64,000 bases of DNA from Parcubacteria group bacterium GW2011_GWC1_45_13 (GCA_001001285.1 LCKG01000003.1:27746-91745); one strand, 5' to 3'. Positions 4,893-58,771 are shown, counted from the stretch's first letter. Translations and numbers: made by a program. Notes: generated from the sequence alone by a model not told the origin.

Positions 4893-7676
4893 ATGAGCGA
4901 GGCGGGAAGCGTAGTTTTTAAAGAGGAATCAAAGAAAGGCGCGCTGTTTGGAGCGCGCGGGCTTAATTTTAAGCGCTATTTTACTAAGGAAGGCGTCCAT
5001 CCCTATGATGAAATAGCGTGGGAAAAACGCGTTGCCCGCATCACCTCATCCAAAGGCGAGGTTATTTTTGAGCAAAAGGGCGTTGAGGCGCCGAAATTTT
5101 GGTCGCAGACGGCAACGGACATTGTCGCCGAGAAATATTTTATGGGGCATGTCGGCAAGCCCGGCAGGGAGTGGTCCGTAAAACAGCTTATAGACCGCGT
5201 TGCAAATACGATGGCGGACTGGGGCAGGCAAGGCGGTTGTTTCGCGGACGAAAAAGACGCGCAAATTTTCAACGAGGAGCTTAAATGGCTATTGGTCAAC
5301 CAGTACGCCTCATTTAATTCGCCGGTTTGGTTTAATGTCGGGGTTGAAAAGAAACCGCAGTGCTCGGCCTGTTTCATTTTGTCCATTACGGACGATAAAG
5401 AGTCCATTGCCGAATGGTATAGGACAGAGATGATGATTTTTTCAGGCGGCTCCGGCGCGGGAATAAATATTTCGCCTCTGCGCTCGTCCAAAGAAAATAT
5501 CGCCGGCCGCGGGAAATCGTCAGGCCCGGTGTCTTTTATGAAAGGAGCCGACGCGATTGCCGGCACAATCCGTTCCGGCGGCAAGACGCGAAGGGCGGCT
5601 AAGATGGTGATTTTAAACGCAAGCCACCCCGATATAAAAACTTTCATAGTTTCCAAATGGAAGGAGGAAGAAAAAGCAAAAGCGCTTATCTCTATGGGTT
5701 ATAACGACGACATTGACGGCGACGTCTATTCAAACATTTTTTTCCAAAACGCCAACAATTCCGTCCGCGCCACGGATGATTTTATGAACGCGGTTTTGGA
5801 AGACAAAAATTGGGAACTCCGAATGATAAAGACAGGCGAGGTTGCCGAGACATTAAAAGCAAGGGACCTTATGAAGCTCATCGCCGAGGCGGCTTGGCAC
5901 TGCGCCGACCCGGGCATGCAATTTGATACGACGATTAATAAATGGCACACCGCTCCCGCCGCAGGCCGCATCAACGGCTCCAACCCGTGCTCGGAATACA
6001 TGCACTTGGACGATTCCGCCTGCAATCTTGCTTCACTAAATCTTCTTAAATTTTTAAATCCGCCGGCTGGCGGAGGCAATTTTGACCACGAGGCGTTTAA
6101 AAAAGCCGTCGGCATTTTTATCACGGCGCAGGATATTACCGTGGACAATTCTTCCTACCCCACGGCTAAAATTGAACAAAACGCCCGCGCTTTCCGCGAA
6201 CTTGGCCTGGGGTACACGAATCTCGGCGCGCTTTTAATGCAGATGGGCTTTCCTTATGATTCAGACGCCGCGCGGGCTTGGGCGGCCGCGATAACTTCAA
6301 TGATGACCGGCGAGGCCTACAATATTTCCACGCGTGTTGCCGAAGCAGTCGGCCCATTTTCCGGATATGAAAAAAATAAGGAGCCGATGCTCGGCGTAAT
6401 CCGCATGCACGGCGAAGAAGCAAAAAAAATAAGCAAAAAGTATCTGCCGGCGGACGTTTGGGAATCCGCCCAAACGCCTTGGGCCGAGGCTCAAAAGCGC
6501 GGCCAGCTCTCTGGCGTCCGGAATTCCCAAGTGAGCGTTTTGGCGCCAACCGGCACGATTTCTTTCATGATGGACGCCACAACCACTGGCATTGAGCCGG
6601 CGTTTTCGCTCGTCGCCTACAAAAAAATGGTGGGCAGAGGATTTTTGAAAATCGCGAACACCTCCGTTGAGCCTGCGCTCAAAAATTTGGGATATAAAGA
6701 ACAAGAAGTCAAAGAAATAATGGATTATATTTTAGCGCATGACGGCATTGAAGGCGCCCCGCATCTTAAAGAAAAAGACATCGCCGTTTTTGATTGTGCC
6801 GTGAACGCCCCCGGCGGCAAGCGAGCCATCCATTATTCCGGCCACATCCGCATGATAGCCGCCGCGCAACCTTTCATTTCCGGAGCGATTTCCAAAACAG
6901 TGAATCTCCCCGAGTCGGCGACGGTTGAGGATATTATGAACACCTACATCGACGCTTGGAAAATGGGGCTTAAGGCGATCGCAATTTACCGCGACAAATC
7001 CAAAGGCGCCCAGCCCCTAAACACTTCCAAGGCAAAGCCATCAAGCGAAAGCGCTGTTGGTGCCAAAGAGGCCGCGCCGTCGGAAGTTGAAAGAAAAAAA
7101 TTGCCGTCAAACGTAAAATCTCTACGCCATAAATTTTCCATCGCAGGGCACGAGGGCTATATCCATTGCGGAATGTATGAAGACGGCAAATTGGGCGAAA
7201 TTTTTATCCGCGTGGCCAAAGAGGGCTCTACCATATCCGGTCTTCTGGATGCCATAGGCGTGCTCATGTCCGTCGCGCTCCAATCGGGAGTTCCGGTTGA
7301 AACTATCGTCAGAAAATTCGTCCATTCCCGTTTTGAGCCGGCCGGATACACAGAAAATCAGGATATTCCGGTTGCCAAATCAATTTTGGATTACATTGGA
7401 AAATTTTTAGCGCTCAATTTTCTTTCTCCAGATGACCAAGCTTCTTTCGGCATCTATTCGCATTCAAAAGAAGCGGAAACTGTCGTGGCGGAGCCTTTTA
7501 AGCTCAAAGAACAACCTAAGCTTTCCTCTCCGGCTTCCGTGCCAGCGGCGTACGACCGCGCTAAAATTTTCGCCTACCAGGATGCTCCCGCCTGCCGTTG
7601 CGGCGCGATTATGATCCGCACCGGCTCCTGCTACACCTGCCCCTCTTGCGGCGAAAACCTCGGGAGCTGCTCGTAG
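4893..7676 (+). CDS. nrdJ: Adenosylcobalamin-dependent (class II) ribonucleoside reductase
   Basis: Active-site region CSACFIL…; GGSGAGINISPLR…GPVSFMKG; C-terminal Cys-rich tail CRCGAIMIRTGSCYTCPSCG typical of NrdJ. 927 aa. Confidence 0.9.
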   Translation: MSEAGSVVFKEESKKGALFGARGLNFKRYFTKEGVHPYDEIAWEKRVARITSSKGEVIFEQKGVEAPKFWSQTATDIVAEKYFMGHVGKPGREWSVKQLIDRVANTMADWGRQGGCFADEKDAQIFNEELKWLLVNQYASFNSPVWFNVGVEKKPQCSACFILSITDDKESIAEWYRTEMMIFSGGSGAGINISPLRSSKENIAGRGKSSGPVSFMKGADAIAGTIRSGGKTRRAAKMVILNASHPDIKTFIVSKWKEEEKAKALISMGYNDDIDGDVYSNIFFQNANNSVRATDDFMNAVLEDKNWELRMIKTGEVAETLKARDLMKLIAEAAWHCADPGMQFDTTINKWHTAPAAGRINGSNPCSEYMHLDDSACNLASLNLLKFLNPPAGGGNFDHEAFKKAVGIFITAQDITVDNSSYPTAKIEQNARAFRELGLGYTNLGALLMQMGFPYDSDAARAWAAAITSMMTGEAYNISTRVAEAVGPFSGYEKNKEPMLGVIRMHGEEAKKISKKYLPADVWESAQTPWAEAQKRGQLSGVRNSQVSVLAPTGTISFMMDATTTGIEPAFSLVAYKKMVGRGFLKIANTSVEPALKNLGYKEQEVKEIMDYILAHDGIEGAPHLKEKDIAVFDCAVNAPGGKRAIHYSGHIRMIAAAQPFISGAISKTVNLPESATVEDIMNTYIDAWKMGLKAIAIYRDKSKGAQPLNTSKAKPSSESAVGAKEAAPSEVERKKLPSNVKSLRHKFSIAGHEGYIHCGMYEDGKLGEIFIRVAKEGSTISGLLDAIGVLMSVALQSGVPVETIVRKFVHSRFEPAGYTENQDIPVAKSILDYIGKFLALNFLSPDDQASFGIYSHSKEAETVVAEPFKLKEQPKLSSPASVPAAYDRAKIFAYQDAPACRCGAIMIRTGSCYTCPSCGENLGSCS

Positions 7677-14531: not shown

Positions 14532-15008
14532 GGAAGATTCTTCGCCGGATAGCCGGTCCGATGCAAGATCGGACAGGAAAGTCCGAGCACCGCTAAGGTA
14601 TTCCCGACGCAAAGTCGGGATGCTCAAAGTTGCAGCCTCGCTGCGCTTCGGGCAACTTTGGCAGAGGCAGTGGCTAACGGCCACCCCCCGCCAACGGCGG
14701 GGCGAGAAACTCCGACGTAAAGTCGGAGCCCCGACTTCATTATTAAATTTTTTAATAGTGCGTCGGGGGTGTCACAGAGACAATACCGCGGACGTCATCA
14801 TTTTCGGTCTAAAGCCGGAAGCGTTGATAGCGCAAGGGTGAAAAGAGGTGAGGTAAAAGCTCACAGCATGCGTTGGCGACAGCGCGTGGTGAAAAACACT
14901 TGCCCGGTGCAACCTGCCTTATCGGCGGGGCTAGAGCCCGAGAGAAATCGAGGGCCCAGACAGATGGCTATTTAAACAGAACTCGGCTTATGAGCGGAGA
15001 ATCAGAAT
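14532..15008 (+). ncRNA. rnpB: RNase P RNA (bacterial type A)
   Basis: Universally conserved P4 elements AGGAAAGTCCGAGCACCGC (about 14575..14593) and ACAGAACTCGGCTTATGAGCGG (about 14976..14997). AAGGGTGAAAAGAGGTGAGGTAAAAGCTCACAGC matches the P10-P12 region. 5' GAAGATTCTTCGCC pairs with 3' GGCGGAGAATC (P1). Ends are +/- 5 nt. Confidence 0.85.
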
Positions 15009-34939: not shown

Positions 34940-34998
34940 CGAAGCGAAGAAGGGCTGCGGGACTAGGATTCGGACCTAGATTACACGGTTCAGAGCCG
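34940..34998 (-). pseudogene. Degenerate tRNA-Gln-like 3' fragment (anticodon arm CUG + T-arm + acceptor 3' strand)
   Basis: Minus strand reads CACGG-CTCTGAA-CCGTG TAATC CTAGG-TCCGAAT-CCTAG TCCCGCA G. The T-loop has C at position 55 and no D-stem partner, so it is a fragment. Confidence 0.4.
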
Positions 34999-34999
34999 T

Positions 35000-35040
35000 G
35001 CGCCCCAGCCTTTTCGGCGGGTCGCCGAGGAGGCGACTAC
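35000..35040 (-). repeat. 41-nt direct repeat X, copy 2 (two small hairpins: TCGCC-N5-GGCGA and CCCGCC-GAAAA-GGC(T)GGG)
   Basis: About 36/41 identical to 35422..35462. Both copies are preceded on the minus strand by GGTAG. Confidence 0.6.
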
Positions 35041-35055
35041 CACTTCCGCACAAAA

Positions 35056-35126
35056 CTGGGAGGCCTGGATTCGAACCAGGGTTATGCGGTTCAGAGCCGC
35101 ATGTCCTACCGCTAGACGACCTCCCA
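35056..35126 (-). tRNA. tRNA-Gln (anticodon CTG)
   Basis: Reverse complement: TGGGAGG TC GTC TAGCGGTAG GAC A TGCGG-CTCTGAA-CCGCA TAACC CTGG-TTCGAAT-CCAGG CCTCCCA G. Flanked by a perfect 14-bp inverted repeat (35042..35055 and 35128..35141). Confidence 0.85.
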
Positions 35127-35145
35127 GTTTTGTGCGGAAGTCTTT

Positions 35146-35421
35146 TTACTCCATTAAATAATTTTTCAACTTACCTTTTAATACTTCTCTACCATATCCT
35201 GTTTTATAAAATTTTTCTCCGGTAGTTGCATCTTTCTTGTCTAAATACGCTTCATAATATATTAGTTTGAAAGGCCTGTTTTTACTGGAATATCCGCCGC
35301 CCTTGCCGGAGTTATGTTCTGATACTCTCTGTTTTAAATCTTCGGTAAAGCCAACATAATTTCGGCCGTTTTTCAAACTTTTTAATACATATACGTAAAA
35401 CATGATTTTTATTGAAGCCAT
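35146..35421 (-). CDS. GIY-YIG nuclease superfamily protein (YhbQ-like) paralog 3
   Basis: …MFYVYVLKSLKNGRNYVGFTEDLKQRVSEHN…FKLIYYE. The true start may be the second ATG (35403). Confidence 0.75.
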   Translation of the reverse strand: MASIKIMFYVYVLKSLKNGRNYVGFTEDLKQRVSEHNSGKGGGYSSKNRPFKLIYYEAYLDKKDATTGEKFYKTGYGREVLKGKLKNYLME

Positions 35422-35462
35422 GCGTCCCCGCCTTTTCGGCGGGTCGCCGATGAGGCGACTAC
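35422..35462 (-). repeat. 41-nt direct repeat X, copy 1, immediately 5' of GIY-YIG paralog 3
   Basis: See copy 2. Preceded (35459..35479 on minus) by a tRNA 5'-half-like sequence TGCGGGATCGTCTAACGGTAG. Confidence 0.6.
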
Positions 35463-35579
35463 CGTTAGACGATCCCGCAATAATGCGTATAATATGTAGA
35501 GGTTAGCAAAAAAATTTTGGTTTGACAAAGTTTAGACATTTGTTAATGTTTAAGTGGTTTTGATTTTTGGGAGGTGCGC

Positions 35580-42381: not shown

Positions 42382-45300
42382 ATGCCGATACAAAAAAAAT
42401 ATTTCTCCCGTTACCGGGAACCCTTGGCGAGCTTGCCCAATCTGGCTGAAATGCAGTTAAAATCCTTTGAATGGTTGGCAAAGGAAGGAATCGGCGAAAT
42501 CCTGAAAGAATTTTCTCCCGTGCTGGATTACACCGGCGAGGAGCTCGCTTTGGAATTTTTGGATTATTCTTTGGACGAACCGAAATTTGATGAAAATTAT
42601 TCTAGGGTAAACAATCTTTCCTACGAAGCTTCTTTAAGGCTTCGCATTCGTTTGGTCAACAAACGCACCGGTGAAAAAAAAGAGCAGGAAATCTTTTTGG
42701 CGGATATGCCCATTATGACCCCCCGCGGAACTTTTCTTATAAACGGCGTGGAGCGAGTGATTGTCTCGCAGCTCGCGCGTTCCTTCGGCGCGTATTTTAC
42801 GGCCAATATTTCGCGTGGGAAAAAACTTTTCGGCGCCAAGATAATTCCTTCCCGCGGGGCCTGGCTGGAATTTGAAACGGAGTCGGACGGAACAATGTAC
42901 GTAAAAGTAGACCGCAAAAGAAAAATCGCGGCGACTGCGTTGCTTCGTATTTTCGGTATGGAAAAGAACGAAGAGATTAAAGATGCTTTTTCCAAAGTAG
43001 ACAACGGCGAAGTTTCTTTCATAAACCAAACACTGGAAAAAGATTCCACCAAAACAGCCGACGATGCTTACGTGGAAGTTTTCAAAAGAATAAGGCAAGG
43101 GGAGCTGGCCACTCCGGAAAACGCCAGAGAACTGGTGGAGCTGATGTTCGGCCCAGAAAGATACGATATTTCCGCTGTGGGCAGATATAAGCTCGGCCAG
43201 AGGCTTCCGGCTCTGGCTTCCATGAAAGTAAAAAATCCGCGTATTTTAAATAAGGAAGATATGATCGTCGTAATTTCGGAAATAATTTCTTTAAATAATA
43301 ATCCGCTGGCTGTCCAGGACGATATTGATAATTTGGGCAACCGCAGGGTACGCTCGGTGGGAGAGATGCTTCAGCAAAGATTGCGCATCGGGCTCGCGCG
43401 CATGGAGCGTACCATTAAGGACCGCATGTCCACTTCCGATTTGGCCACGGTAACCCCGGCTCAACTTTTAAACGCGCGCCCATTTGCCGCGGTAATTTCC
43501 GAATTTTTCATGACCAACCAGCTTTCCCAATTTATGGATCAGACCAATGTTTTATCCGAATTGGAACATAAGCGCAGGGTTTCAGCTTTGGGCCCGGGGG
43601 GACTTACTCGCGAAAGATCCGGTTTTGAGGTGCGCGATGTTCATCCCTCTTACTACGGCCGGCTTTGCCCGATTATGACTCCTGAAGGCCCAAATATCGG
43701 TTTGATAAATTATTTGGCGGGATACGCAAAAATTAATGAATATGGAATTTTGGAAACTCCTTACAGAAAAGTTGTTGATGGGCGCGTGTCTAAAGAGCTT
43801 CATTATCTTACGGCTTTTGAAGAGGTTAGGCATAAAATCGCTCAAGCCGGAGTTTCCATTGATAAAGAAGGCAATATTTTGGATGAGGAATGCGAAGGAC
43901 GCGCGAGCGGCCAGCCGGCGCTAATTCCGCGTGGCGAGATTAATTACATGGATGTTTCTCCACAGCAGGCTTTTTCCGTCGCGACTTCTTTGGTGCCGTT
44001 TTTAGAGCATGACGATTCAACCCGCGCCATGATGGGTTCCAACATGCAGCGCCAAGCTGTGCCTTGCGTCCGGCCGCAGGCGCCGTTGGTTGCCACCGGC
44101 ATGGAGGAAAAAGCAGCCAAGGATTCTGGCAGGCTTGTTTTAGCCGATGTGGATGGAATCGTAAGCAAGGTTGACGCTAATTCCGTAACGATACGTTATG
44201 AGAAACCCCGACGTAAAGTCGGGGCTCCGACCAAAGCGTCGGAGGAAAAAACTTACGAATTAATGACATTCGTCCGTTCCAACCAGTCTACTGTAATCCA
44301 TCAGCGTCCTTCAGTGAAAGTCGGTGACAAAGTAGAGAAGGGAGATGTTTTAGCTGATACCTCGCTGACCGACCGGGGACATTTGGCTTTGGGGCAAAAT
44401 TTGCTGGTAGCTTTTCTTTCATGGGGCGGAGCTAATTTTGAAGACGCCATCATACTTTCAGACCGCATGGTGAAAGACGATGTTTTTACTTCAGTTTTGA
44501 TAGAGGATTACACGGTGTCTGTGCGGGACACCAAGCTGGGCCCGGAAATTACCACGCATGATATTCCCAATGTGGGAGAAGAAAGGCTCAAAGATTTGGA
44601 TGAAGATGGAATTGTAAGAATTGGCGCCGAAGTCAGGCCCGGCGATATTTTGGTCGGGAAAATTTCTCCGAAAGGTGAGTCGGATCTCACTCCAGAGGAA
44701 AGACTGCTCCGCGCCATTTTCGGAGAGAAAGCTAGAGATGTCAAAGATACTTCTTTCAGAATGCCGCACGGCAGAAAAGGCCGCGTGGTCGGCATCAAAA
44801 TTTTTTCTCGCGAAAAAGGAGATAAATTGGAAACAGGAGTGATTAAGGAAATCCGAATTGAAGTGGCCGAGATGAGGAAAGTTTCTCCGGGCGACAAATT
44901 GGCCGGCAGGCATGGAAATAAAGGCGTTATCTCGCGCATTCTGCCGCAGGAAGATATGCCGTATTTGGATGACGGCACGCCGGTGGATATAATTTTAAAT
45001 CCTTTGGGCGTGGCATCACGCATGAATATCGGGCAAATTTTGGAAACACACTTGGGCTGGGCCGCCCAGAAGTTGGGCTATATGGCCATAACCCCGACCT
45101 TGGCGGGAGCTACCGAAACCGAAATAAAAGAAGAATTGAAAAAAGCCGGATTACCGGAAGATGGTAAAATAAAACTTTTTGACGGGCGAACCGGCAGGGA
45201 ATTTGACCAAAAAGTGACTGTCGGCATGATTTATGTGATGAAGCTTTCCCATATGGTGGAGGACAAAATCCATATGCGTTCCATCGGTCCTTATTCGCTT

Positions 45301-48600: not shown

Positions 48601-49272
48601 ATACTTTCCAATATTTCTGGAATTGTTTCGGCTATTGTTGATTCACCTGAAGGCAATCGCGATAAAATTATACGAATCGGAGAAGCGGAATTTACCGCGC
48701 CTTTCGGGCGTACGATTTTAGTTTCTCCCGGCGAAGAAATTAATCCCGGGGACAGGCTTACCGAAGGCGCGGCCGACATCAAAGAGCTTTTAACGGTGGC
48801 CGGAATAAAAGCCGCCCAAAATTATATTATTTATGAAGTCCAACAGCTTTACACTTTTCAGGGCGCTTCCATAAACGACAAACATATTGAAACCATAGTC
48901 CGTCAGATGTTCTCCAGAGTGAAAATCAAAGATCCCGGCGGAACCAAACTGGGCATCGGAGAAATTGTTGAAAAACCTATGTTGCGCGAGGAAAATTTAA
49001 AAATTAGAAAAGCTAGCGGGCTCCCGGCGAAAGCCGTCCAGTTGATGATGGGCATTACTAATGTGGCGCTGACCACGGAAAGTTTCCTTTCGGCGGCCTC
49101 TTTTATGCAAACTATGCGCGTTTTGACCAACGCCGCCATTGAAGGGAAGGAAGATAAATTGCGCGGCCTTAAAGAAAACGTCATCATCGGCCGGCTCATT
49201 CCCGCCGGCACCGGCTACCGCAAAGAATACCTCAAAAAACTGGAATCGGCGGCGAAAGAAGAGGAAGAGTAG
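45664..49272 (+). CDS. rpoC: DNA-directed RNA polymerase subunit beta'
   Basis: Zn-finger CYCGKYKRVRYKGIICDKCGVEV; catalytic NADFDGDQMAVHVP. 1202 aa. Confidence 0.97.
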   Translation: METQKITDFKSLSIRLASRERILNWSRGEVTKPETINYRTQRPEKDGLFDERIFGPEKDYECYCGKYKRVRYKGIICDKCGVEVTRSIVRRERMGHIELASPVSHIWFLRGVPSRIGLILDMSVPDLEKVIYFGGYVVTKVDEKARKEVVDAVEKEYKSKSKTNSAAEKEALKNIYDSTLAEIKNLKERAVISEVEYHRFSLKYAQVFEAGIGAEALKKLCSQLNLNQISGGLAKDMEEASPLQKKKILRRLRLIQSLIRSGVRPDWMFLTAIPIIPPALRPMVQLEGGRHATSDINDLYRRVINRNNRLKKLLEIKAPEVIVRNEKRMLQESVDALIDNSIKRTQGPAATSQAQKRPLRSLADMLKGKQGRFRQNLLGKRVDYSGRSVIVVGPELKLHQCGLPKHMALELFRPFVIHDLIARDLAHTIKGAGRLIDDLKQEVWESLENVIKDKYVLLNRAPTLHRLGIQAFQPILIEGNAIQLHPLVCSAFNADFDGDQMAVHVPLTDEAQKEARSIMASVKNLLKPGNGEPVITPTQDIVMGIAYLTRIRPVAKGEGKYFASPNEAILAYDYGWVDIHSKLFVKITKTPKYQQVGREILETSVGRLLFNSVLPRDYAFLNKEMTKKDLERLVSNLIQRYGIDATPMILDRIKSLGFRHATDSGISWGMDDIQVPEEKKSLIEKAKEEARVIENQYNQGLLTDRERSEKIIEAWTNVKTKVDALAPSALDPFGPIHYMVSSGARGNWAQINQLASMKGLVVNPSGRTIELPILASYKEGLAVLEYFISTHASRKGTADTALKTAAAGYLTRRLVDVVQDVIVSEPDCKDEAGFEVYKKDFDKLGKNFASRVFGRVLAMDILDPSLGKPLFKKGHLLSMDDAERVASLNISTVTLRSPISCRSRRGICQLCYGYDLGSNTPVKLGEAVGIVAAQAVGEPGTQLTMRTFHVGGIAGAADITMGLPRVEEIFELRTPKTPAILSNISGIVSAIVDSPEGNRDKIIRIGEAEFTAPFGRTILVSPGEEINPGDRLTEGAADIKELLTVAGIKAAQNYIIYEVQQLYTFQGASINDKHIETIVRQMFSRVKIKDPGGTKLGIGEIVEKPMLREENLKIRKASGLPAKAVQLMMGITNVALTTESFLSAASFMQTMRVLTNAAIEGKEDKLRGLKENVIIGRLIPAGTGYRKEYLKKLESAAKEEEE

Positions 49273-49333
49273 GTTTTTGGCTTGCAAATTTTTATATAAC
49301 TGCTAAGATTTTTTCAGAAAGGTGGAAAGTCCT

Positions 49334-50203
49334 ATGAAAATTACTTACCTCGGACCTGCCGGAGCAACATTTTCTGCGATGGCTTATGACAAGCTGGCCT
49401 TTATGTTCGACGCGCCTAAAACTGGCGATTCTGGCACAGAGCTTTTGCTTGCGCAATCGAATGAGGAGATTTTGCCGCTTATGCTGAAGCACGGTGGCTA
49501 CGGAGTCATGGCTATGGAAACAAAGGCACAAGGGCGCATTGATCCGCCGGTTAATTCTTTCATCGAGCTTTTGGAAGCATACGACGAACGCTGTCCCGTT
49601 AGTATTGTCGCGGCTATCCGCATGAGACTCAATTTCGCGCTCATGGCCCGCCCTGGTCTGTCTGTGGACAAAGTGAAAATGATTTTGGCGCACAAGCAAG
49701 CCCTGGGCGCGTGCCGTAAACGCTTGGAAACTCTGGGGGCGGAATTGATTGAAGCTTTGAGCAATGGTCAAGCCGCTGAAGATGTGGCAACTAAAGACGA
49801 CTTGGCCTATGCTGCTGCTCTTGGGCCGAGTGTCGCGGCAGAAAAATATGGCCTTGTGATACTAAATGGCGCGTTTGAAGACAAGGAAGCCGTAACTACT
49901 TTTTTTCTTTTGAGCGCCGAAGGCAGCGCTTCGTGGACATGCGAAGAAAACCGCGGGCTTATGGTCTTTAGAACAAAACATAAGCCCGGCGCTCTTGTGA
50001 GCGTTCTTACACCATTCGCTAGACTGGGCATCAATCTGATACACATCCATTCTTTGTATTCCGGCAACGGTGAATACGATTTCGCCGTAGAAACCGAATG
50101 CGGTTTTACTGAATTAGGGAGCCATCTGCTTGCCGGGAGAAACGCCAGAGAGTTTATGACCAAACATATAGTCTTTGGCCCATTCGCAATCTTAGACGTT
50201 TAA
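49334..50203 (+). CDS. pheA: Prephenate dehydratase (PDT + ACT domains)
   Basis: ITYLGPAGATFS N-terminal motif and a C-terminal ACT regulatory domain. Start taken at the second Met. Confidence 0.75.
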   Translation: MKITYLGPAGATFSAMAYDKLAFMFDAPKTGDSGTELLLAQSNEEILPLMLKHGGYGVMAMETKAQGRIDPPVNSFIELLEAYDERCPVSIVAAIRMRLNFALMARPGLSVDKVKMILAHKQALGACRKRLETLGAELIEALSNGQAAEDVATKDDLAYAAALGPSVAAEKYGLVILNGAFEDKEAVTTFFLLSAEGSASWTCEENRGLMVFRTKHKPGALVSVLTPFARLGINLIHIHSLYSGNGEYDFAVETECGFTELGSHLLAGRNAREFMTKHIVFGPFAILDV

Positions 50204-50212
50204 TATGGAATC

Positions 50213-50241
50213 ATGCGCCTGCGCCGTCGGGCGCATTTTTA
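50213..50241 (+). terminator. Rho-independent terminator after pheA
   Basis: ATGCGCC-N10-GGCGCAT followed by TTTTTAT. Confidence 0.55.
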
Positions 50242-50244
50242 TAT

Positions 50245-50322
50245 ATGATTTGCTATAATAAATAAATGGCGAAAAAGAAACGGAATAACGGAAAAAATGG
50301 AGCGGGGATTGGGGCGTGGCAT
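50245..50322 (+). repeat. Duplicate of ftsK promoter + first 19 codons (about 94% identical to 51328..51405)
   Basis: TTTGCTATAAT(A/T)AAATAAATGGCGAAAAAGAAA…GGAGCGGGGATTGGGGCGTGGCAT is shared. Here the open frame MAKKKRNNGKNGAGIGAWHWA stops, and the PaaX-like ORF starts (GTG) inside the duplicated segment. Confidence 0.8.
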
Positions 50323-50816
50323 TGGGCTTAGCGGCTCATTCTCCTCGAAGGCGAAGAAGGGTGTTTAAAAATATACCTTTAGAATTTAACAAAATTGACC
50401 GGCGCGTTCTTCAACGCATTATACGCGAATTCCATCGCGATAGACTGGTAGATTTTAAGGAAGATGGGGATAACGGCGTTCGGATTATTCTTACAGAGCA
50501 GGGCGTCAAAAAGGCGTTGCGGTATAATATTGATGCCATCTTTATTGAAGAGCCTAAAAAATGGGATGGAAAATGGAGGATCGTGGTTTTTGATATTCCG
50601 GAAAAAATGAAAAAGGCTCGCGAGGCGCTGCGTGACAAACTGCGCAAACTCGGTTTTTATCAACTTCAAAAAAGCGTTTTTGTTTTCCCCTTCGCGTGCC
50701 ATGATGAAATAAATTTTATTGTTGAATTTTTTGAATTACGCTCCAATGTCCGCATTATGACCGTGTTGGACATTACTAATGAAGCCGAACTAAAATTGCA
50801 TTTTGGGCTTTCTTAA
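50316..50816 (+). CDS. PaaX-like transcriptional regulator family protein (paralog 1, N-terminally remodelled)
   Basis: wHTH (RVLQRIIREFHRDRLVDF) plus KWDGKWRIVVFDIPEKMKKAREALRDKLRKLGFYQLQKSVFVFP (the PaaX C-domain WDGKW motif). GTG start. Confidence 0.6.
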   Translation: MALGLAAHSPRRRRRVFKNIPLEFNKIDRRVLQRIIREFHRDRLVDFKEDGDNGVRIILTEQGVKKALRYNIDAIFIEEPKKWDGKWRIVVFDIPEKMKKAREALRDKLRKLGFYQLQKSVFVFPFACHDEINFIVEFFELRSNVRIMTVLDITNEAELKLHFGLS

Positions 50817-51001
50817 ATTTGGTTTAGAATACTTTAGAATACTGATGCACCATACTTTTGCGATCGCCGGAGAACGGACTTTTCTTTGTTTGACTTATTA
50901 AGTCCGCTGTGCTAGGGTTAGGGCGTTATCAAGCAACGCGCTTGGCAATCTCCATGGCGGAGCGTAGCCGTAAATTGTTCATTGAGAAAAAGGAGAAACG
51001 C

Positions 51002-51250
51002 ATGGAAAATCTTGGAAAAGAGCTGAAGGTAAATCTGGAAAAAAAGTTAAGAAAGAGGTATGCCGAAAGAATCGTGCAGGAAATAATGAGGCGATTTCGC
51101 CCAACGTCGCCGTCGCAAGACGAAAAGACCGCGCTGTCTACTTGTATGCAAATAGCTGGAGATGTCTTGCGAGAATCAGCGCGAGACGCAGTCAGAGAAA
51201 CAAAGGCGGATGCAGACGCAAGACTTTCAACAGGATATTGGGGTGATTAA
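51002..51250 (+). CDS. Hypothetical small basic protein
   Basis: Start at the ATG preceded by AAGGAG. 82 aa, Lys/Arg-rich. Confidence 0.4.
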   Translation: MENLGKELKVNLEKKLRKRYAERIVQEIMRRFRPTSPSQDEKTALSTCMQIAGDVLRESARDAVRETKADADARLSTGYWGD

Positions 51251-51346
51251 TTGAATTTGGGTTTTTCGTGTGGGCTTTCTCGTCATTGCTATCGAGAAGG
51301 CCTTTTTATTTACCTCAAAGAGCTTTATTTTGCTATAATTAAATAA

Positions 51347-53566
51347 ATGGCGAAAAAGAAAAGGAATAACGGGAAAAGCGGAGCGGGGATTGGGGCGTGG
51401 CATCAGAATTTAAGGCCGGAGACCAAGCATTCGCTTTGGGCGGTTTTATCTTTTCTGGCGGCGGTGCTTTTGGCGCTGGCTTATTTCGGCAAAGCCGGGC
51501 TGGTAGGGGACGCAATCCAAAAAACTTTGCTTTTGGTTTTCGGAAAAGGTTTTTTTCTCGTCTCTCTGGCTTTTCTTCTGGCCGGGTTATCGTTTCTTTT
51601 TGCTTTGGGAAACCATCTGCTTATTACCACTATTCTCGGCGGAGTTTTATTTTTAATAAGTTCTTTGGGGCTTTCCGATATTTTATTCGGCGCTTACACC
51701 GGCGGGTATGTCGGCTTTTTATTTTCTTTCCCATTTTTGAAATTATTTGATTTTTGGGCGTCTCTGATAATTTTTTCCGCCCTGCTTCTGGCGTCCTTCC
51801 TGATTATGCTTAATGTTTCTTTAAAGCCGAAAAGAAAAGAGAAAGCAGAAAGAGAAAAAGCGGAAGAAAAAATCTTCGCGCCAATGCCAGCTGTTCCCTC
51901 GCTTTCTTTGCCTCCGGCAAAAATTGAAGAAAAAAAGATTGAAGAAAATGACGAAGAAACGTCCATTTTGTCTTTAATCCCCAAAAATATTTTCAGAAAA
52001 TCATACAAGCCGCAGAAACTTGAACTTGCCAAAGAATACGCCACTCCGCCGTTGGACCTTTTGGAGGACGACAAAGGCACGCCTTCATCGGGCGACATCA
52101 AAGCCAACGCCAATATTATAAAAAGGACATTGCAAAATTTTGGTATTGACGTGGAGATGTCCGAGGTGAACGTTGGCCCTTCGGTTACGCAGTACACTTT
52201 AAAACCCGCAGAGGGAGTAAAGCTTGCCCGCATCACGGCTTTGCATAACGACTTGGCGTTGGCTTTGGCGGCGCATCCTTTGAGAATTGAAGCGCCCATT
52301 CCCAGCAAATCTTTGGTTGGAATAGAAGTGCCAAACCGCTCTATTGCTTTGGTGGGGCTTCGAAGCCTCTTAGGCATGGATGAATTTAAAAACGGCATGC
52401 CGCTTACTTTTGCGCTGGGCAGGGATGTTTCTGGCAGGGCGGTTTTCGCCGATATCGCCAAAATGCCGCATCTTTTGGTGGCTGGAGCCACCGGTTCGGG
52501 AAAATCAATTACTATGCACACTTTAATTGTGAGTTTGCTTTATAAAAATTCTCCGGAATTCGTGCGCTTTTTAATGATAGACCCTAAAAGGGTGGAGCTT
52601 TCCGTGTATAAAAATCTTCCGCACCTTCTGGCGCCGGTAATCACTGACGCCAAAAAGGCCATTATGTCTTTAAGATGGGCCGTCCGCGAAATGGAAAGGC
52701 GATACGAAAAACTTTCCGAGGTCGGCGCCAGGGATATTGTTTCCTACAACACAGAAATGATAAAGGAAAAAGCGCACGATGAAATTTTGCCAAATCTCAT
52801 AATAATTATTGACGAGCTGGCCGACCTTATGGCTTCCTATCCGCGTGAAATGGAGGCCTCAATCGTGCGCTTGGCGCAGATGTCGCGGGCGGTGGGAATT
52901 CATTTGGTAGTTTCCACCCAGCGCCCATCGGTTGAGGTGATTACCGGTTTAATCAAAGCGAATATTACTTCAAGAATCGCTTTGCAGGTGGCTTCCGGCG
53001 TGGATTCGCGCACAATTTTGGATATGTCTGGAGCCGAAAAACTTTTGGGCAACGGCGACATGCTTTTTTTGGCGGGGGACACTTCTAAACCGAGAAGAAT
53101 CCAAGCGGCATTTATATCAGAAAAGGAAGTGAAAAAAGTCGCGGCGTATGTCGCGGAGTCCGCCGGAGAATTTTTGGCCGAAGGCGCCCGCCTGCCGGAC
53201 GGGCATGGAGAAATTGATTTTGAATTGAAATTGCCGTTAGCCAACGGAGCCGGCGGAGATTTGGGAGAAAATGAGGATATGGACGACGAACTTTATGAAG
53301 AGGCCAAAAGGCTTATTGTGGACGCGCAAAAAGCTTCGGCGTCATACCTTCAAAGAAGGCTGCGGGTTGGCTACGCCAGAGCCGCGCGGCTCTTGGATAT
53401 GTTGGAAGCGCAGGGCGTAATCGGCCCCGGCGAAGGGGCGAAGCCGAGGGAGGTTTTGATTAAAAAATCAGCGGAATCAATCGCGATTGGCAAAACTTTG
53501 GAGCCGGAAGATTTTGGAGATGACGAAGAAAAATCCGATACTCCTTACACTAACTTTGATTTTTGA
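51347..53566 (+). CDS. ftsK: DNA translocase FtsK/SpoIIIE
   Basis: N-terminal TM region. Motor domain with Walker A GATGSGKS, Walker B IIIIDELADL and the C-terminal gamma winged helix. The TGcTATAAT promoter gives a near-leaderless start. Confidence 0.9.
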   Translation: MAKKKRNNGKSGAGIGAWHQNLRPETKHSLWAVLSFLAAVLLALAYFGKAGLVGDAIQKTLLLVFGKGFFLVSLAFLLAGLSFLFALGNHLLITTILGGVLFLISSLGLSDILFGAYTGGYVGFLFSFPFLKLFDFWASLIIFSALLLASFLIMLNVSLKPKRKEKAEREKAEEKIFAPMPAVPSLSLPPAKIEEKKIEENDEETSILSLIPKNIFRKSYKPQKLELAKEYATPPLDLLEDDKGTPSSGDIKANANIIKRTLQNFGIDVEMSEVNVGPSVTQYTLKPAEGVKLARITALHNDLALALAAHPLRIEAPIPSKSLVGIEVPNRSIALVGLRSLLGMDEFKNGMPLTFALGRDVSGRAVFADIAKMPHLLVAGATGSGKSITMHTLIVSLLYKNSPEFVRFLMIDPKRVELSVYKNLPHLLAPVITDAKKAIMSLRWAVREMERRYEKLSEVGARDIVSYNTEMIKEKAHDEILPNLIIIIDELADLMASYPREMEASIVRLAQMSRAVGIHLVVSTQRPSVEVITGLIKANITSRIALQVASGVDSRTILDMSGAEKLLGNGDMLFLAGDTSKPRRIQAAFISEKEVKKVAAYVAESAGEFLAEGARLPDGHGEIDFELKLPLANGAGGDLGENEDMDDELYEEAKRLIVDAQKASASYLQRRLRVGYARAARLLDMLEAQGVIGPGEGAKPREVLIKKSAESIAIGKTLEPEDFGDDEEKSDTPYTNFDF

Positions 53567-53905: not shown

Positions 53906-54922
53906 ATGGCAAAAAAAGAAGAGAAACAATCAAAGGACAGCAGGTGGCAGCAGGTGGACGCGGCGGTGAGGGATTTGGAGTCCAAATTCGGCGAAGGCGT
54001 GCTTATGAAATTGGGAGACGTCGCGAAAGTTGACGTGGACGTGATTCCGACAGGCTCTTTGAGTTTGGATATGGCTTTGGGGGTCGGCGGAATCCCGCGG
54101 GGAAGAATTATTGAAATTTTTGGGCCGGAGTCTTCCGGAAAAACCACTCTGGCTCTTCATGTTATAGCGGAAGCCCAGAAAAAAGGAGGCATCACCGCTT
54201 TTATTGACGCCGAGCACGCGCTTGACCCGGAATACTCAAAACGGCTGGGCGTAAAGACGGAAGACCTTTTGATTTCCCAGCCGGACACCGGCGAGCAGGC
54301 GCTGGAAATTATTGAATCATTGGTGCGCTCGGGAAAAGTTGACGTGATAGTCGTGGATTCAGTCGCCGCGCTAACTCCTAAAGCGGAAATAGAAGGGGAT
54401 ATGGGCCAGCAGCATATGGGGCTTCAGGCGCGCCTTATGTCGCACGCGCTCCGGAAGCTTACGGCGATAGTCGCCAAGTCCAACACCATAGTAATATTTC
54501 TCAATCAAATCAGGATGAAAATCGGAATAATGTTCGGAAATCCGGAGACCACTCCCGGAGGCAACGCGCTTAAATTTTATTGTTCGGTGCGGATTGATTT
54601 AAGGCGCCTCGCCCAGATTAAAAAAGGCGAGGACATAATCGGCAACCGCGTGAAGGCAAAAATCGTGAAAAATAAAGTGGCGCCGCCTTTTAAAATCGCC
54701 GAGTTTGATATTTTATACAACGAAGGCATTTCTTTTGAAAGCGACCTTTTGGGGCTCGGCGAAAAATACGGCGTTGTAAAAAAATCGGGGGCTTCCTACA
54801 GCTTCGGGGATATTTCTTTGGGGAGGGGCTACGACGCCGCCAGATTAAAGCTCAAAGAAGACAAAAAACTAACCCAAGAATTGGTAAAAGCGATAAAAGA
54901 GATCGCAAAGAAGGCGGAATAA
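53906..54922 (+). CDS. recA: Recombinase RecA
   Basis: [20 protein letters not shown] (Walker A) and L1/L2 loops. 338 aa. Confidence 0.95.
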
Positions 54923-57971: not shown

Positions 57972-58007
57972 GCTCGTTATATTATCACAACTGCGTTAAA
58001 AACTGAA

Positions 58008-58043
58008 GTGCAGATTTGACAGCTATAGCGTTCAAACTTGCAC
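58008..58043 (+). promoter_or_regulatory. 36-bp imperfect palindrome GTGCAGATTTGACAGCTATAGCGTTCAAACTTGCAC (copy L)
   Basis: A direct, slightly diverged copy lies at 58669..58704. The pair brackets the PaaX-like paralog 2 gene, and copy L is also 37 nt upstream of ychF. Confidence 0.55.
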
Positions 58044-58066
58044 ACGGATTTTATAAGCCATATTCA

Positions 58067-58633
58067 TTATAAATTAAACAGTTTTTTCATATGCAGTTCG
58101 TTATCAATTTCGTTAGCCGTAACGAATCTGACATAAGGCCTTACATTAAAAAACTCTATTATAAAATCAACTTCGTCTTTACATTCGAATGGATGAACAA
58201 ATACGCTTTTTTGGAATTTTATAAATCCGGCGTTTTTTAGCACTCTGGCAAAAGCGTCTCTAGCCCTTTTCATATTTTCCGGTATATCAAAAAGAACTAT
58301 GCGCCATTTTTTGTCCCACTTTTTCATTGGCTGTATTTTTAATTCATCAATTTGGTAAGTTAGAACTTTCTTTTTGCCGCGCTCGGTTAAAATAAGTGTT
58401 GTTGCGCCGTTTACGTTATCCACAACGTCTATGAGGCGAGAGCGGTACAAGCTTTTTATGGCATTGTAAAGCGCACGTCGTTCGATATTCTTCCATTCTT
58501 TTCCGATCATTCTTATAATTTTAAAGTATCGCTGCGGTGAATGCGTAAGCCCGAGCGCCAAACCGCCCCAGAGCAAAAGCATCACTTTTTGAGCAGTTGG
58601 GCCTATTCGCGGTTCTGAATAACGTTTTCGCAT
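58067..58633 (-). CDS. PaaX-like transcriptional regulator family protein (paralog 2)
   Basis: wHTH (RALYNAIKSLYRSRLIDV) plus KKWDKKWRIVLFDIPENMKRARDAFARVLKNAGFIKFQKSVFVHP. Confidence 0.65.
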   Translation of the reverse strand: MRKRYSEPRIGPTAQKVMLLLWGGLALGLTHSPQRYFKIIRMIGKEWKNIERRALYNAIKSLYRSRLIDVVDNVNGATTLILTERGKKKVLTYQIDELKIQPMKKWDKKWRIVLFDIPENMKRARDAFARVLKNAGFIKFQKSVFVHPFECKDEVDFIIEFFNVRPYVRFVTANEIDNELHMKKLFNL

Positions 58634-58668
58634 TGATGTGATGTTATGATAGCGCGTGTTATTTGTTA

Positions 58669-58704
58669 GTGCAAGTTTGACAGCTATCGCTGTGAAATCT
58701 GCAC
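58669..58704 (+). promoter_or_regulatory. 36-bp imperfect palindrome GTGCAAGTTTGACAGCTATCGCTGTGAAATCTGCAC (copy R)
   Basis: 36 nt upstream of the PaaX-like paralog 2 start codon. Geometry (two half-sites about 26 bp apart) resembles known PaaX operators. Confidence 0.55.
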
Positions 58705-58771
58705 TAGGATTTTGGTTTGTAAATAAAAAAACCGCCGAGATGCGCTGTCCTAGGCAGAGTCTGGCGGTGTT

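What the first reader, a model, noticed from the sequence alone, without database searches (positions are those of the whole stretch)
50245..51405. Promoter-plus-5'-end of ftsK duplicated and grafted onto a PaaX-like regulator gene
About 78 bp (TGcTATAAT -10, ATG, 19 codons MAKKKRNNGK…GAWH) are present twice at about 94% identity. The copy at 50245..50322 terminates after 21 codons, and a GTG-initiated PaaX-like ORF begins inside it. Relative to paralog 2, this ORF lacks the N-terminal ~20 residues. This is a clear promoter-capture or duplication event that would put the regulator under the same near-leaderless cell-division promoter as ftsK.
Basis: seen in the sequence. Interest (0 to 1): 0.6.

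Follow-up and report, generated by a model that had tools for sequence, protein, structure and literature searches.

The report
Recombination scar truncating a PaaX-like gene
The duplicated ftsK promoter and first 19 codons are real, but they are best explained as the leftover of an accidental recombination that brought in a pheA gene and cut off the start of a neighbouring regulator gene, not as evident rewiring of that regulator.

Summary
A 73-74 nt stretch (TTGCTATAAT, ATG, 19 ftsK codons) occurs twice, 1081 nt apart, at 93-94% identity. Copy A ends in a 21-codon ORF, and a 166-codon PaaX-like ORF starts inside it at GTG 50316. It is not a mis-assembly: at least seven contigs from JGI, MEGAHIT and other assemblies carry both copies with the same differences.

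Comparison with sister Candidatus Giovannonibacteria genomes changes the interpretation. All orthologs start MAKYYYSPxKQK..WAGVALGL behind their own palindrome-bearing leaderless promoter. In the window those 60 nt are replaced by 50 nt of ftsK, joined at a 10-nt microhomology (GGCGTGGCAT), which breaks the reading frame. Copy A's upstream flank (pheA, terminator) is the true ftsK upstream region in L032 and L036. Copy B's flank is the true one in L010. The locus is therefore a composite of two alternative rpoC-ftsK haplotypes joined by one illegitimate crossover. The likeliest mechanism is homology-facilitated illegitimate recombination that brought in pheA.

The regulator lost its promoter, its operator and most of conserved helix 1. 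Whether the remnant is expressed is unknown. This is an ordinary kind of event, though well documented here.

The parts
49334..50203 (+). pheA-like prephenate dehydratase gene. It is the acquired block to which copy A is attached. The longest-ORF start is GTG 49322; gene callers use ATG 49334.
   Evidence: Pfam PDT 1.5e-25 plus ACT. Among the rpoC-ftsK intervals examined here (L010-L036), pheA is present only in the window species, L032 and L036. It is absent from the loci fetched for L010, L011 and L033 and from the short L034 contig.
50213..50236 (+). pheA intrinsic-terminator hairpin followed by a T-run. It should insulate copy A from upstream transcription.
   Evidence: Terminator scan. 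Homologous hairpins follow pheA in L032 and L036.
50250..50322 (+). Copy A: extended -10 box TGCTATAAT (50251-50259), a 6-nt spacer, ATG 50266 and ftsK codons 1-19.
50266..50331 (+). 21-codon leaderless-type ORF (MAKKKRNNGKNGAGIGAWHWA*), made of 19 ftsK codons plus 2 out-of-frame PaaX codons. It overlaps the PaaX ORF by 16 nt.
   Evidence: Direct reading of the sequence.
50313..50322 (+). Illegitimate joint: the 10-nt microhomology GGCGTGGCAT, shared by ftsK codons 16-19 and PaaX codons 20-23.
   Evidence: Three-way comparison of copy B, copy A and the L034/L010 PaaX 5' ends.
50316..50816 (+). 5'-truncated PaaX-like ORF (166 codons from GTG). It corresponds to residues 21-186 of the full-length orthologs.
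   Evidence: dN/dS against orthologs is 0.12-0.16.
50850..50867 (+). Remaining half-site CCATACTTTTGCGATCGC of the candidate operator. The full palindrome found upstream of every intact ortholog is missing here.
50890..50990 (+). Conserved promoter-like element (TTGACT, 17 nt, TAGGGT) plus a roughly 70-nt conserved leader. It belongs to the L010-type haplotype.
   Evidence: Alignment of 5 species. No Rfam match.
51002..51250 (+). orf82, a species-specific small ORF with a good SD, sitting in the variable slot behind the conserved leader.
   Evidence: Gene call in L001. No Pfam family. SD duplex -8.9 kcal/mol.
51330..51403 (+). Copy B: the functional ftsK promoter (TGCTATAAT, 7-nt spacer) and codons 1-19.
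   Evidence: Its upstream flank is homologous to L010's ftsK upstream region.
51347..53566 (+). ftsK (739 aa).
   Evidence: Pfam FtsK_alpha, FtsK_SpoIIIE and FtsK_gamma.
58067..58633 (-). Intact paralog 2 of the PaaX-like family (188 aa). It is syntenically conserved in L010 and L011.

Best explanation
The locus is a recombination scar. In Candidatus Giovannonibacteria the interval between rpoC and ftsK is variable. One haplotype carries an accessory PaaX-like regulator with its own leaderless, palindrome-bearing promoter, followed by a conserved leader and a small ORF (as in L010). Another carries pheA directly upstream of the ftsK promoter (as in L032 and L036). In the window's lineage a pheA block (rpoC 3' end, promoter, pheA, terminator, ftsK promoter, ftsK codons 1-19) became joined to codon 21 of the resident PaaX-like gene. 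The join is a single illegitimate crossover within the 10-nt microhomology GGCGTGGCAT. The other end was most probably resolved by ordinary homologous recombination in rpoC, which is the pattern called homology-facilitated illegitimate recombination (HFIR). As a by-product the ftsK promoter and 5' end are now present twice. The regulator gene lost its own promoter, its palindromic operator and its first 20 codons. Because 50 nt replaced 60 nt, the ftsK-derived start is out of frame and ends as a 21-codon mini-ORF that overlaps the remaining PaaX reading frame. Any expression of the remnant would have to come from the copied, operator-less ftsK-type promoter, with initiation or termination-reinitiation at GTG 50316 or TTG 50322. 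The product would lack most of helix 1 of the winged-helix domain, so it is probably no longer the ancestral regulator. Shown here: the duplication, the junction, the lost elements and the alternative haplotypes. Inferred: the HFIR mechanism, the direction of transfer and the functional state of the remnant.
For: (1) All orthologs (L010, L032, L033, L034) and more distant family members start MAKYYYSPxKQKxxLLLxAG, in frame with VALGL. The window has ftsK sequence there instead. (2) The junction lies in GGCGTGGCAT, which is shared by ftsK and PaaX. (3) Copy A's left flank (pheA 3' end, hairpin) aligns with the true ftsK upstream region of L032 and L036. Copy B's left flank aligns with that of L010. 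(4) Every state that distinguishes copy A from copy B is a natural ftsK allele elsewhere: CGG in L011 and L036, the 6-nt spacer in L010, L011, L034 and L036, and GGA AAA AAT in L033. (5) All three pheA-bearing haplotypes examined carry a duplicated homology-arm scar next to pheA. The window has 75 nt of ftsK 5' end, L036 has 27 nt of P_ftsK joined to 101 nt of rpoC 3' end, and L032 has 49 nt of rpoC 3' end. No such duplicate was found in the fetched loci of the four pheA-less haplotypes. (6) ftsK itself is mosaic between lineages. (7) The arrangement is present in JGI and MEGAHIT k127/k141 contigs from several samples. (8) HFIR joints at 3-10 bp microhomologies are documented in transformable bacteria (PMC6382021). 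(9) Helix 1 (residues 8-25) and the near-invariant K12, L17 and G20 fall in or next to the lost segment. The upstream palindrome is lost.
Against: The simple parental haplotype rpoC-pheA-ftsK was not found (one search gave only a chance hit). pheA of the window is only 73% identical in nucleotides to L032's, so no donor can be named. Copy A is still slightly closer to copy B (69/74) than to any other ftsK allele (at most 67/73), which an intragenomic duplication would also predict. Natural competence of this organism was not tested. The remnant ORF shows no decay: it is intact over 166 codons and dN/dS is 0.12-0.16, so 'crippled' is an inference from what is missing.
Confidence: 0.68

Rival explanations
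1. Intragenomic microhomology-mediated tandem duplication of the segment from PaaX codon 21 to ftsK codon 19, followed by differential loss or replacement of the redundant genes. This would give the present order pheA, P_ftsK', truncated PaaX, leader-orf82, P_ftsK-ftsK.
For: Copy A is marginally closest to copy B (69/74). A tandem duplication gives exactly this kind of novel joint. One scaffold of the same species (L003) shows a 2083-nt tandem repeat of pheA-PaaX-orf82, joined at the 9-nt microhomology TACCTCAAA.
Against: A tandem duplication would give both promoter copies the same upstream context. Here the contexts differ, and each matches a different sister haplotype, so at least two further events are needed. 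Copy A's differences are standing ftsK alleles, not random decay. L003 comes from an assembly series that demonstrably makes chimeric joins at short shared strings (L044).
Confidence: 0.17
2. Adaptive promoter capture. The regulator was placed under the ftsK-type leaderless promoter and is expressed as a functional N-terminally shortened protein, co-regulated with cell division.
For: A perfect extended -10 box is retained 6 nt before ATG. This is the same architecture found at 13 or more real gene starts in the window. The ORF is intact in every contig examined, and dN/dS is 0.12-0.16, as for intact orthologs. GGAG lies 12 nt upstream of GTG 50316 (-7.0 kcal/mol, top 5% of background). The 16-nt overlap with the mini-ORF would allow termination-reinitiation.
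Against: The join is out of frame. It removes a motif that is conserved across CPR classes and 13 of the 18 residues of predicted helix 1. The GTG is buried in a predicted hairpin. The gene is accessory and is absent from L011. The truncated form was seen only in this species. Most of the measured divergence may predate the event, and the branch-specific counts (6 synonymous, 8 non-synonymous) are uninformative.
Confidence: 0.25
3. Assembly artefact: a chimeric join or a collapsed repeat.
For: The junction lies at a short shared string. One assembly series produces chimeras at such strings (L044). Two contigs break exactly at the repeat (L005 and L043).
Against: The same structure, with the same five differences between the copies, is in JGI contigs and in MEGAHIT k127/k141 contigs from different samples. 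A 10-nt overlap cannot create a k127 or k141 path. A collapsed repeat would give identical copies, not copies at 93-94% identity.
Confidence: 0.02
4. Programmed -1 ribosomal frameshift at A AAA AAT (50292-50298), fusing the ftsK-derived leader peptide to the PaaX frame.
For: The heptamer is in the zero frame. The PaaX frame is -1 relative to it and opens just upstream, after the TAA at 50286-50288. A predicted hairpin starts 5 nt downstream of the heptamer.
Against: The same GGA AAA AAT is a normal allele in L033's genuine ftsK, so it did not arise at this locus. The fold is not unusual (z = -1.46). The fusion would not restore the lost helix. The motif is seen in one species only.
Confidence: 0.03
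5. A mobile element or integrase-mediated insertion, with the repeat being a target-site or att duplication.
For: A 1.08-kb segment is flanked by direct repeats.
Against: The segment contains no transposase or integrase. The left edge of the repeat is simply where ftsK promoter conservation begins in all species. The right edge lies inside homologous PaaX codons at a microhomology.
Confidence: 0.02

Closest known systems
Homology-facilitated illegitimate recombination (HFIR) in naturally transformable bacteria (Acinetobacter baylyi, Streptococcus pneumoniae, Pseudomonas stutzeri; de Vries & Wackernagel 2002, Prudhomme et al. 2002, Meier & Wackernagel 2003, as summarised in PMC6382021)
   Same: Non-homologous DNA (pheA) has been acquired. 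One side lies next to a conserved gene that could serve as the homologous anchor (rpoC or ftsK). The other side is joined at a short microhomology: 10 nt in the window and about 6-7 nt in L032. A duplicated arm is left behind as a footprint.
   Different: Here it is inferred only from comparative genomics of uncultivated CPR bacteria. The donor, the uptake route and RecA dependence are unknown. The L036 joint has almost no microhomology.
Microhomology-mediated tandem duplication followed by differential gene loss
   Same: It produces a novel joint at a microhomology and a short direct repeat flanking the reshuffled genes.
   Different: It predicts identical upstream contexts for both promoter copies, and that is not observed.
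E. coli PaaX (PDB 8a39), repressor of phenylacetate catabolism
   Same: The central Cas2-like domain matches (PF20803, 1.1e-22). Full-length relatives are predicted to have an N-terminal three-helix plus wing domain. PaaX is the top Foldseek hit.
   Different: The CPR proteins are about 186 aa and lack the PaaX C-terminal domain. No ligand or regulon is known. The window's copy also lacks helix 1 and its own operator.
Promoter capture or promoter swapping through gene rearrangement
   Same: A gene ends up downstream of another gene's promoter after a rearrangement.
   Different: In recognised functional cases the coding region stays intact and altered expression has been shown. Here the join is out of frame, removes conserved residues, and expression is untested.

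Membership tests
PaaX-family transcriptional regulator | Central Cas2-like domain (Pfam PF20803 PaaX_M) | tested here: met
   1.1e-22, 80.4 bits against a cut-off of 24. Foldseek finds Cas2 and VapD folds for the C-terminal domain of a full-length relative.
PaaX-family transcriptional regulator | Complete N-terminal winged-helix DNA-binding domain | tested here: not met
   The model of full-length relative P0010 has H8-25, H33-47, H49-61 and wing strands 64-90, with pLDDT of only 55-66 in this domain. The window ORF starts at the equivalent of residue 21, so it lacks 13 of the 18 helix-1 residues and the near-invariant K12, L17 and G20.
PaaX-family transcriptional regulator | C-terminal PaaX_C domain | tested here: not met
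   No Pfam match beyond PaaX_M and Cas2. The whole family is about 180-190 aa, against 305 residues for PDB 8a39.
PaaX-family transcriptional regulator | Binds an operator and responds to an acyl-CoA effector | not testable with these tools
   There is only a candidate operator. The palindrome CCATACTTTTGCGATCGCAAAAGTATGG overlaps the -10 box of every intact ortholog. The window keeps only a downstream half-site.
HFIR footprint | Illegitimate joint at a 3-10 bp microhomology | tested here: met
   GGCGTGGCAT (10 nt) is shared by ftsK codons 16-19 and PaaX codons 20-23.
HFIR footprint | Heterologous DNA flanked on one side by a homologous anchor and present in only some lineages | tested here: met
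   pheA lies directly after rpoC in the window. It is absent from the loci fetched for L010, L011 and L033 and from the short L034 contig. All three pheA-bearing haplotypes examined have arm duplications next to pheA.
HFIR footprint | Identifiable donor lineage or parental haplotype | tested here: not met
   The metagenome pattern scan for pheA followed by an intact ftsK gave only a chance hit. The nearest pheA genes are only 71-75% identical in amino acids.
HFIR footprint | Natural transformation and RecA dependence | not testable with these tools
   recA is present at 53906-54922. Competence genes were not examined.
Leaderless-mRNA promoter | A -10 box about 6-8 nt upstream of the start codon, with no SD | tested here: met
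   TGCTATAAT followed by 6 nt (copy A) or 7 nt (copy B) and then ATG. The same architecture occurs at 13 or more real gene starts in the window. The median SD duplex energy of 37 real starts is about 0.
Leaderless-mRNA promoter | A mapped transcription start at the start codon | not testable with these tools
   No transcript data are available.
Programmed -1 frameshift site | A slippery X XXY YYZ heptamer in the zero frame plus a downstream structure, conserved for that purpose | tested here: inconclusive
   A AAA AAT and a hairpin 5 nt downstream are present. However, z is -1.46, and the same A-run is an ordinary ftsK allele in L033.
Transposon or integrative element with a target or att duplication | A recombinase gene and element ends that are independent of the host genes | tested here: not met
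   No recombinase lies between the repeats. The repeat edges coincide with the edge of promoter conservation and with a coding-region microhomology.

The most novel reading that the evidence does not exclude
The rpoC-ftsK interval of Giovannonibacteria may be a natural hot spot where a pheA cassette, carrying rpoC and ftsK homology arms, spreads between lineages by one-sided (homology-facilitated illegitimate) recombination. That would leave rare, datable footprints of DNA uptake in uncultivated CPR bacteria. In this species the accident would also have rewired an autoregulated PaaX-like gene into an operator-less unit under an ftsK-type leaderless promoter. Its helix-1-less product, mainly the Cas2-like domain, would be made by reinitiation after a 21-codon leader ORF and would have acquired a new role.
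Probability: 0.2. Interest if true: 0.5.

Novelty: new member of a known kind. Interest (0 to 1): 0.27.

Why it matters
Mainly it sets the record straight. An eye-catching 'promoter capture' is better explained as collateral damage from illegitimate recombination. The 166-aa 'regulator' in this genome is a 5'-truncated, probably impaired remnant. There are three secondary points. First, three independent arm-duplication scars around pheA in one interval are a compact natural example of one-sided recombination in CPR bacteria, whose gene-exchange mechanisms cannot yet be studied in culture. Second, gene callers systematically miss the SD-less, leaderless-type starts of this PaaX-like family, calling 151-170 aa where the true length is about 186 aa, even in a complete genome. 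That would mislead any comparison based on annotated proteins. Third, extended -10 boxes placed immediately before the start codon, together with little use of SD sequences, appear to be the norm in this genome.

Tried and rejected
1. Mis-assembly. Rejected because the same junction and the same copy differences are present in JGI and MEGAHIT k127/k141 contigs.

2. Search for the parental rpoC-pheA-intact-ftsK haplotype in metagenome contigs with a gapped pattern. It returned only an unrelated chance match, L041.

3. Contexts of more distant pheA homologs (P0124, P0125). They are unrelated to rpoC/ftsK and gave no information on a donor.

4. Recombination breakpoint in rpoC by sliding-window identity. 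There is no clear signal: all three relatives are about equally distant. ftsK does show mosaicism.

5. Selection test on the remnant. Pairwise dN/dS is 0.12-0.16, but the branch-specific count of 6 synonymous and 8 non-synonymous changes is too small to separate constraint from recent neutrality.

6. Short (161-170 aa) family members as evidence for natural short isoforms. Rejected because they are mis-called starts.

7. -1 frameshift idea. Weakened because the A-run is a normal ftsK allele in L033 and the fold is not significant.

8. Rfam search of 49200-51500. Nothing found.

9. L003 tandem duplication as evidence for recurrent tandem duplication. Down-weighted after L044, from the same assembly series, proved chimeric.

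10. PDB sequence search with the family profile. No hits.

11. Pfam scan of the variable small ORFs. No assignment above the curated cut-offs; the only sub-threshold matches are zinc-ribbon hits in L010's ORF.
Full report
**Observation**

The repeat is real. The repeat finder reports 50259-50322 and 51340-51403 as a 64-nt direct repeat at 94% identity, 1081 nt apart. With the TTGCTATAAT box, which is offset by a single-base indel, the similarity covers 50250-50322 and 51330-51403, 69 of 74 aligned positions. A degenerate 30-nt pattern for the first ten codons hits only these two places, against none in 100 shuffles.

Copy B is the start of a 739-aa FtsK with alpha, motor and gamma domains. Copy A reads ATG 50266 to TAG 50329-50331, which is MAKKKRNNGKNGAGIGAWHWA*. 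A 166-codon ORF with a PaaX_M/Cas2-like domain (1.1e-22) starts at GTG 50316, inside copy A. A second, intact paralog lies at 58067-58633 on the minus strand (48% identity) and has 24 more N-terminal residues.

**Not an artefact**

The window is from a Candidatus Giovannonibacteria (CPR) population in groundwater. The exact FtsK protein is on 24 contigs. Nine were read. At least seven of them, from JGI assemblies, MEGAHIT k127/k141 assemblies and a third scaffold series, carry both copies with the same five differences between them. A 10-nt shared string cannot create a k127 or k141 path, and collapsed repeats would be identical.

Two cautions apply. One scaffold series is demonstrably capable of chimeric joins: the first 140 nt of L044 are an unrelated high-GC dehydrogenase fragment joined to pheA at ACGGTGAATAC. 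I therefore give little weight to the odd tandem pheA-PaaX-orf82 duplication in L003, which is from the same series. Also, two contigs break exactly at the repeat (L005, L043), which might reflect co-existing haplotypes. That cannot be tested here.

**What the gene looked like before**

The closest orthologs (86-89% identical in amino acids) are full length in four other Giovannonibacteria lineages. L010, L032, L033 and L034 all read ATG GCA AAR TAY TAY TAT AGY CCA ... TGG GCY GGC GTG GCR TTR GGY, that is MAKYYYSPxKQKxILLLWAGVALGL. Database entries of 151-170 aa are mis-called starts. Even in a complete Niyogibacteria genome (L042) the in-frame MAKYYYSPTKQK lies upstream of the annotated start.

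In a 73-member alignment K12, L17 and G20 are nearly invariant. An AlphaFold model of a full-length member puts residues 8-25 in the first helix of a three-helix plus wing domain, at modest confidence, ahead of a confidently modelled Cas2-like domain. The top Foldseek hit is E. coli PaaX, followed by Cas2 proteins.

Every intact ortholog is preceded by the perfect palindrome CCATACTTTTGCGATCGCAAAAGTATGG. It overlaps a TGGTACTAT box 6 nt before the ATG, and a half-site follows the gene. The window retains only the downstream half-site, at 50850-50867.

**The junction**

In the window the 60 nt from ATG to the GTG of V21 are replaced by 50 nt of ftsK, so the frames no longer match. The switch from ftsK to PaaX sequence falls within GGCGTGGCAT (50313-50322). 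That string is shared by ftsK codons 16-19 (GGGGCGTGGCAT|CAG) and PaaX codons 20-23 (GCTGGCGTGGCAT|TGGGC in L034). The left end of the repeat is not a junction. It is simply where conservation of the ftsK promoter begins in all species.

**Two haplotypes, one joint**

rpoC-ftsK-recA synteny is widespread in CPR, but in this genus the rpoC-ftsK interval is variable:

- L011: only a conserved leader plus a small ORF.
- L010 and L034: PaaX, leader and another small ORF.
- L033: PaaX and a HAD hydrolase.
- L032: PaaX, a 49-nt duplicate of the rpoC 3' end, pheA, then ftsK.
- L036: pheA, a 27-nt copy of the ftsK promoter and ATG joined to 101 nt of rpoC 3' end, then leader, another small ORF and the real ftsK.

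Copy A's left flank (pheA 3' end and terminator hairpin) is homologous to the genuine ftsK upstream region of L032 and L036. Copy B's left flank (TTTTTATTTACCTCAA..) is homologous to that of L010. The states that distinguish copy A from copy B are all standing ftsK alleles in sister species: CGG, the 6-nt spacer and GGA AAA AAT. All three pheA-bearing haplotypes examined carry a duplicated 'arm' scar next to pheA, and no such duplicate was found in the fetched loci of the four pheA-less haplotypes. ftsK itself is mosaic: nt 0-300 are closer to L010 and L011, and nt 450-750 are much closer to L032.

**Mechanism**

The most economical reading is a single illegitimate crossover between a pheA-ftsK haplotype and a PaaX-leader-orf-ftsK haplotype, with the other end resolved by homology in rpoC. 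This is the signature of homology-facilitated illegitimate recombination, documented in transformable bacteria with joints at 3-10 bp microhomologies (PMC6382021).

An intragenomic tandem duplication followed by differential loss gives the same joint. It needs at least two extra events to explain the different upstream contexts, so I rate it lower (0.17). No donor or simple parental haplotype was found, so the direction of transfer and the source remain inferred.

**Consequence for the regulator**

After the pheA terminator (50213-50236), the only promoter-like element upstream of the remnant is the copied TGCTATAAT box 6 nt before ATG 50266. This extended -10 box followed directly by a start codon occurs at 13 or more real gene starts in the window, including ftsK, recA, rpsF, ychF and paralog 2. 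Most genes here have no SD: the median duplex energy is about 0 for 37 starts. A leaderless transcript starting at the mini-ORF is therefore plausible.

Translation of the PaaX frame would need initiation at GTG 50316 or reinitiation after the overlapping mini-ORF. GGAG lies 12 nt upstream of the GTG (-7.0 kcal/mol, top 5% of background), but the GTG sits in a predicted hairpin.

The ORF is intact, and its dN/dS against orthologs (0.12-0.16) equals that among intact orthologs. However, the branch-specific counts (6 synonymous, 8 non-synonymous) cannot separate constraint from a recent event. The gene is accessory, being absent from L011, and the intact paralog 2 is syntenically conserved.

On balance the remnant is more likely an impaired or decaying copy than a purposefully rewired regulator. 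I put functional expression at about 0.25. A -1 frameshift at A AAA AAT is formally possible but unlikely, because the same run is an ordinary ftsK allele in L033 and the fold is unremarkable.

**Comparison and verdict**

The event belongs to a known kind: a microhomology or HFIR-type recombination scar that causes 5' replacement of a neighbouring gene. The protein is PaaX-like in its central domain only. The family lacks the PaaX C-terminal domain, and this copy also lacks helix 1.

Its interpretation is partly supported: there is a duplication, and the copied promoter is the only upstream promoter candidate. But 'clear promoter capture' overstates the case. Interest is modest at 0.27. The case is well documented and corrects the annotation, but it is neither surprising to a specialist nor a new mechanism.

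Noticed in passing
window 50890-50990; L010 5338-5440; L011 3420-3520; L034 786-890; L036 1160-1260: A strongly conserved promoter-like element (TTGACT, 17 nt, TGCTAGGGT) plus a roughly 70-nt leader with predicted hairpins. In each species it is followed by a different, unrelated small ORF: orf82 in the window, a 155-aa ORF with sub-threshold zinc-ribbon matches in L010 (L034's begins similarly), an 89-aa ORF in L011 and a 105-aa ORF in L036. It looks like a variable-cargo slot behind a conserved leader. There is no Rfam match, and five sequences show no double compensatory changes.
   Followed up: partly
window 58007-58052 and 58668-58713: The intact PaaX-like paralog 2 is flanked on both sides by copies of a 37-46 nt sequence that is itself palindromic (GTGCAGATTTGA..TCAAACTTGCAC). 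This parallels the palindrome and half-site that flank paralog 1 orthologs. They could be operators or cassette boundaries.
   Followed up: no
L032 4955-5456, L034 208-709, L042 1436-1992 and many database entries (P0003, P0006, P0007, P0031 and others): Gene callers, including the annotation of a complete genome, systematically start this PaaX-like family 15-25 codons too late, apparently because the true ATG has no SD and often sits only a few bases after the -10 box. Annotated lengths of 151-170 aa are therefore unreliable.
   Followed up: yes
whole window, e.g. starts at 4893, 8150, 10868(-), 26179, 33729(-), 40614, 51347, 53906, 56904(-), 57971(-), 58633(-), 59103, 61481(-): An extended -10 box (TGnTAnnAT) lies 6-9 nt upstream of the start codon at 13 or more real genes. 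Only about 10 of 37 starts have a recognisable SD. This suggests widespread leaderless or SD-independent initiation in this CPR genome.
   Followed up: partly
L003 5893-7975 (same species, scaffold ANAN16-1_SAMN03842451 scaffold_2045): The scaffold has a tandem duplication of the 2083-nt unit rpoC 3' end (45 nt), pheA, copy A, PaaX remnant and orf82. It is joined at the 9-nt microhomology TACCTCAAA, with two SNPs near the joint. This is either a real population variant or a chimeric scaffold.
   Followed up: partly
L044 1-140 (ANAN16-1_SAMN03202997 scaffold_91271): A chimeric scaffold: an unrelated high-GC short-chain dehydrogenase fragment is joined to this species' pheA at the shared string ACGGTGAATAC. 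This is a warning about that assembly series.
   Followed up: yes
window 51347-53566 compared with L010, L011 and L032: ftsK is mosaic between sister lineages. Nucleotides 450-750 are 84-86% identical to L032 but only 68-74% identical to L010 and L011, while the first 300 nt show the opposite tendency.
   Followed up: partly
L005 start (window 51329) and L043 end (window 50259): Two contigs from independent assemblies break exactly at the edges of the TTGCTATAAT repeat. This may mean the population contains a second haplotype, for example one in which recombination between the repeats has deleted the intervening 1081 nt.
   Followed up: no
window 14704-14735 and 44200-44231; 34955-35463: A 32-nt hairpin-like repeat (GAGAAACYCCGACGTAAAGTCGGRGCYCCGAC, 91% identical) occurs at two distant sites. 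Separately, there is a cluster of related repeats at 34955-35463. Neither was examined.
   Followed up: no
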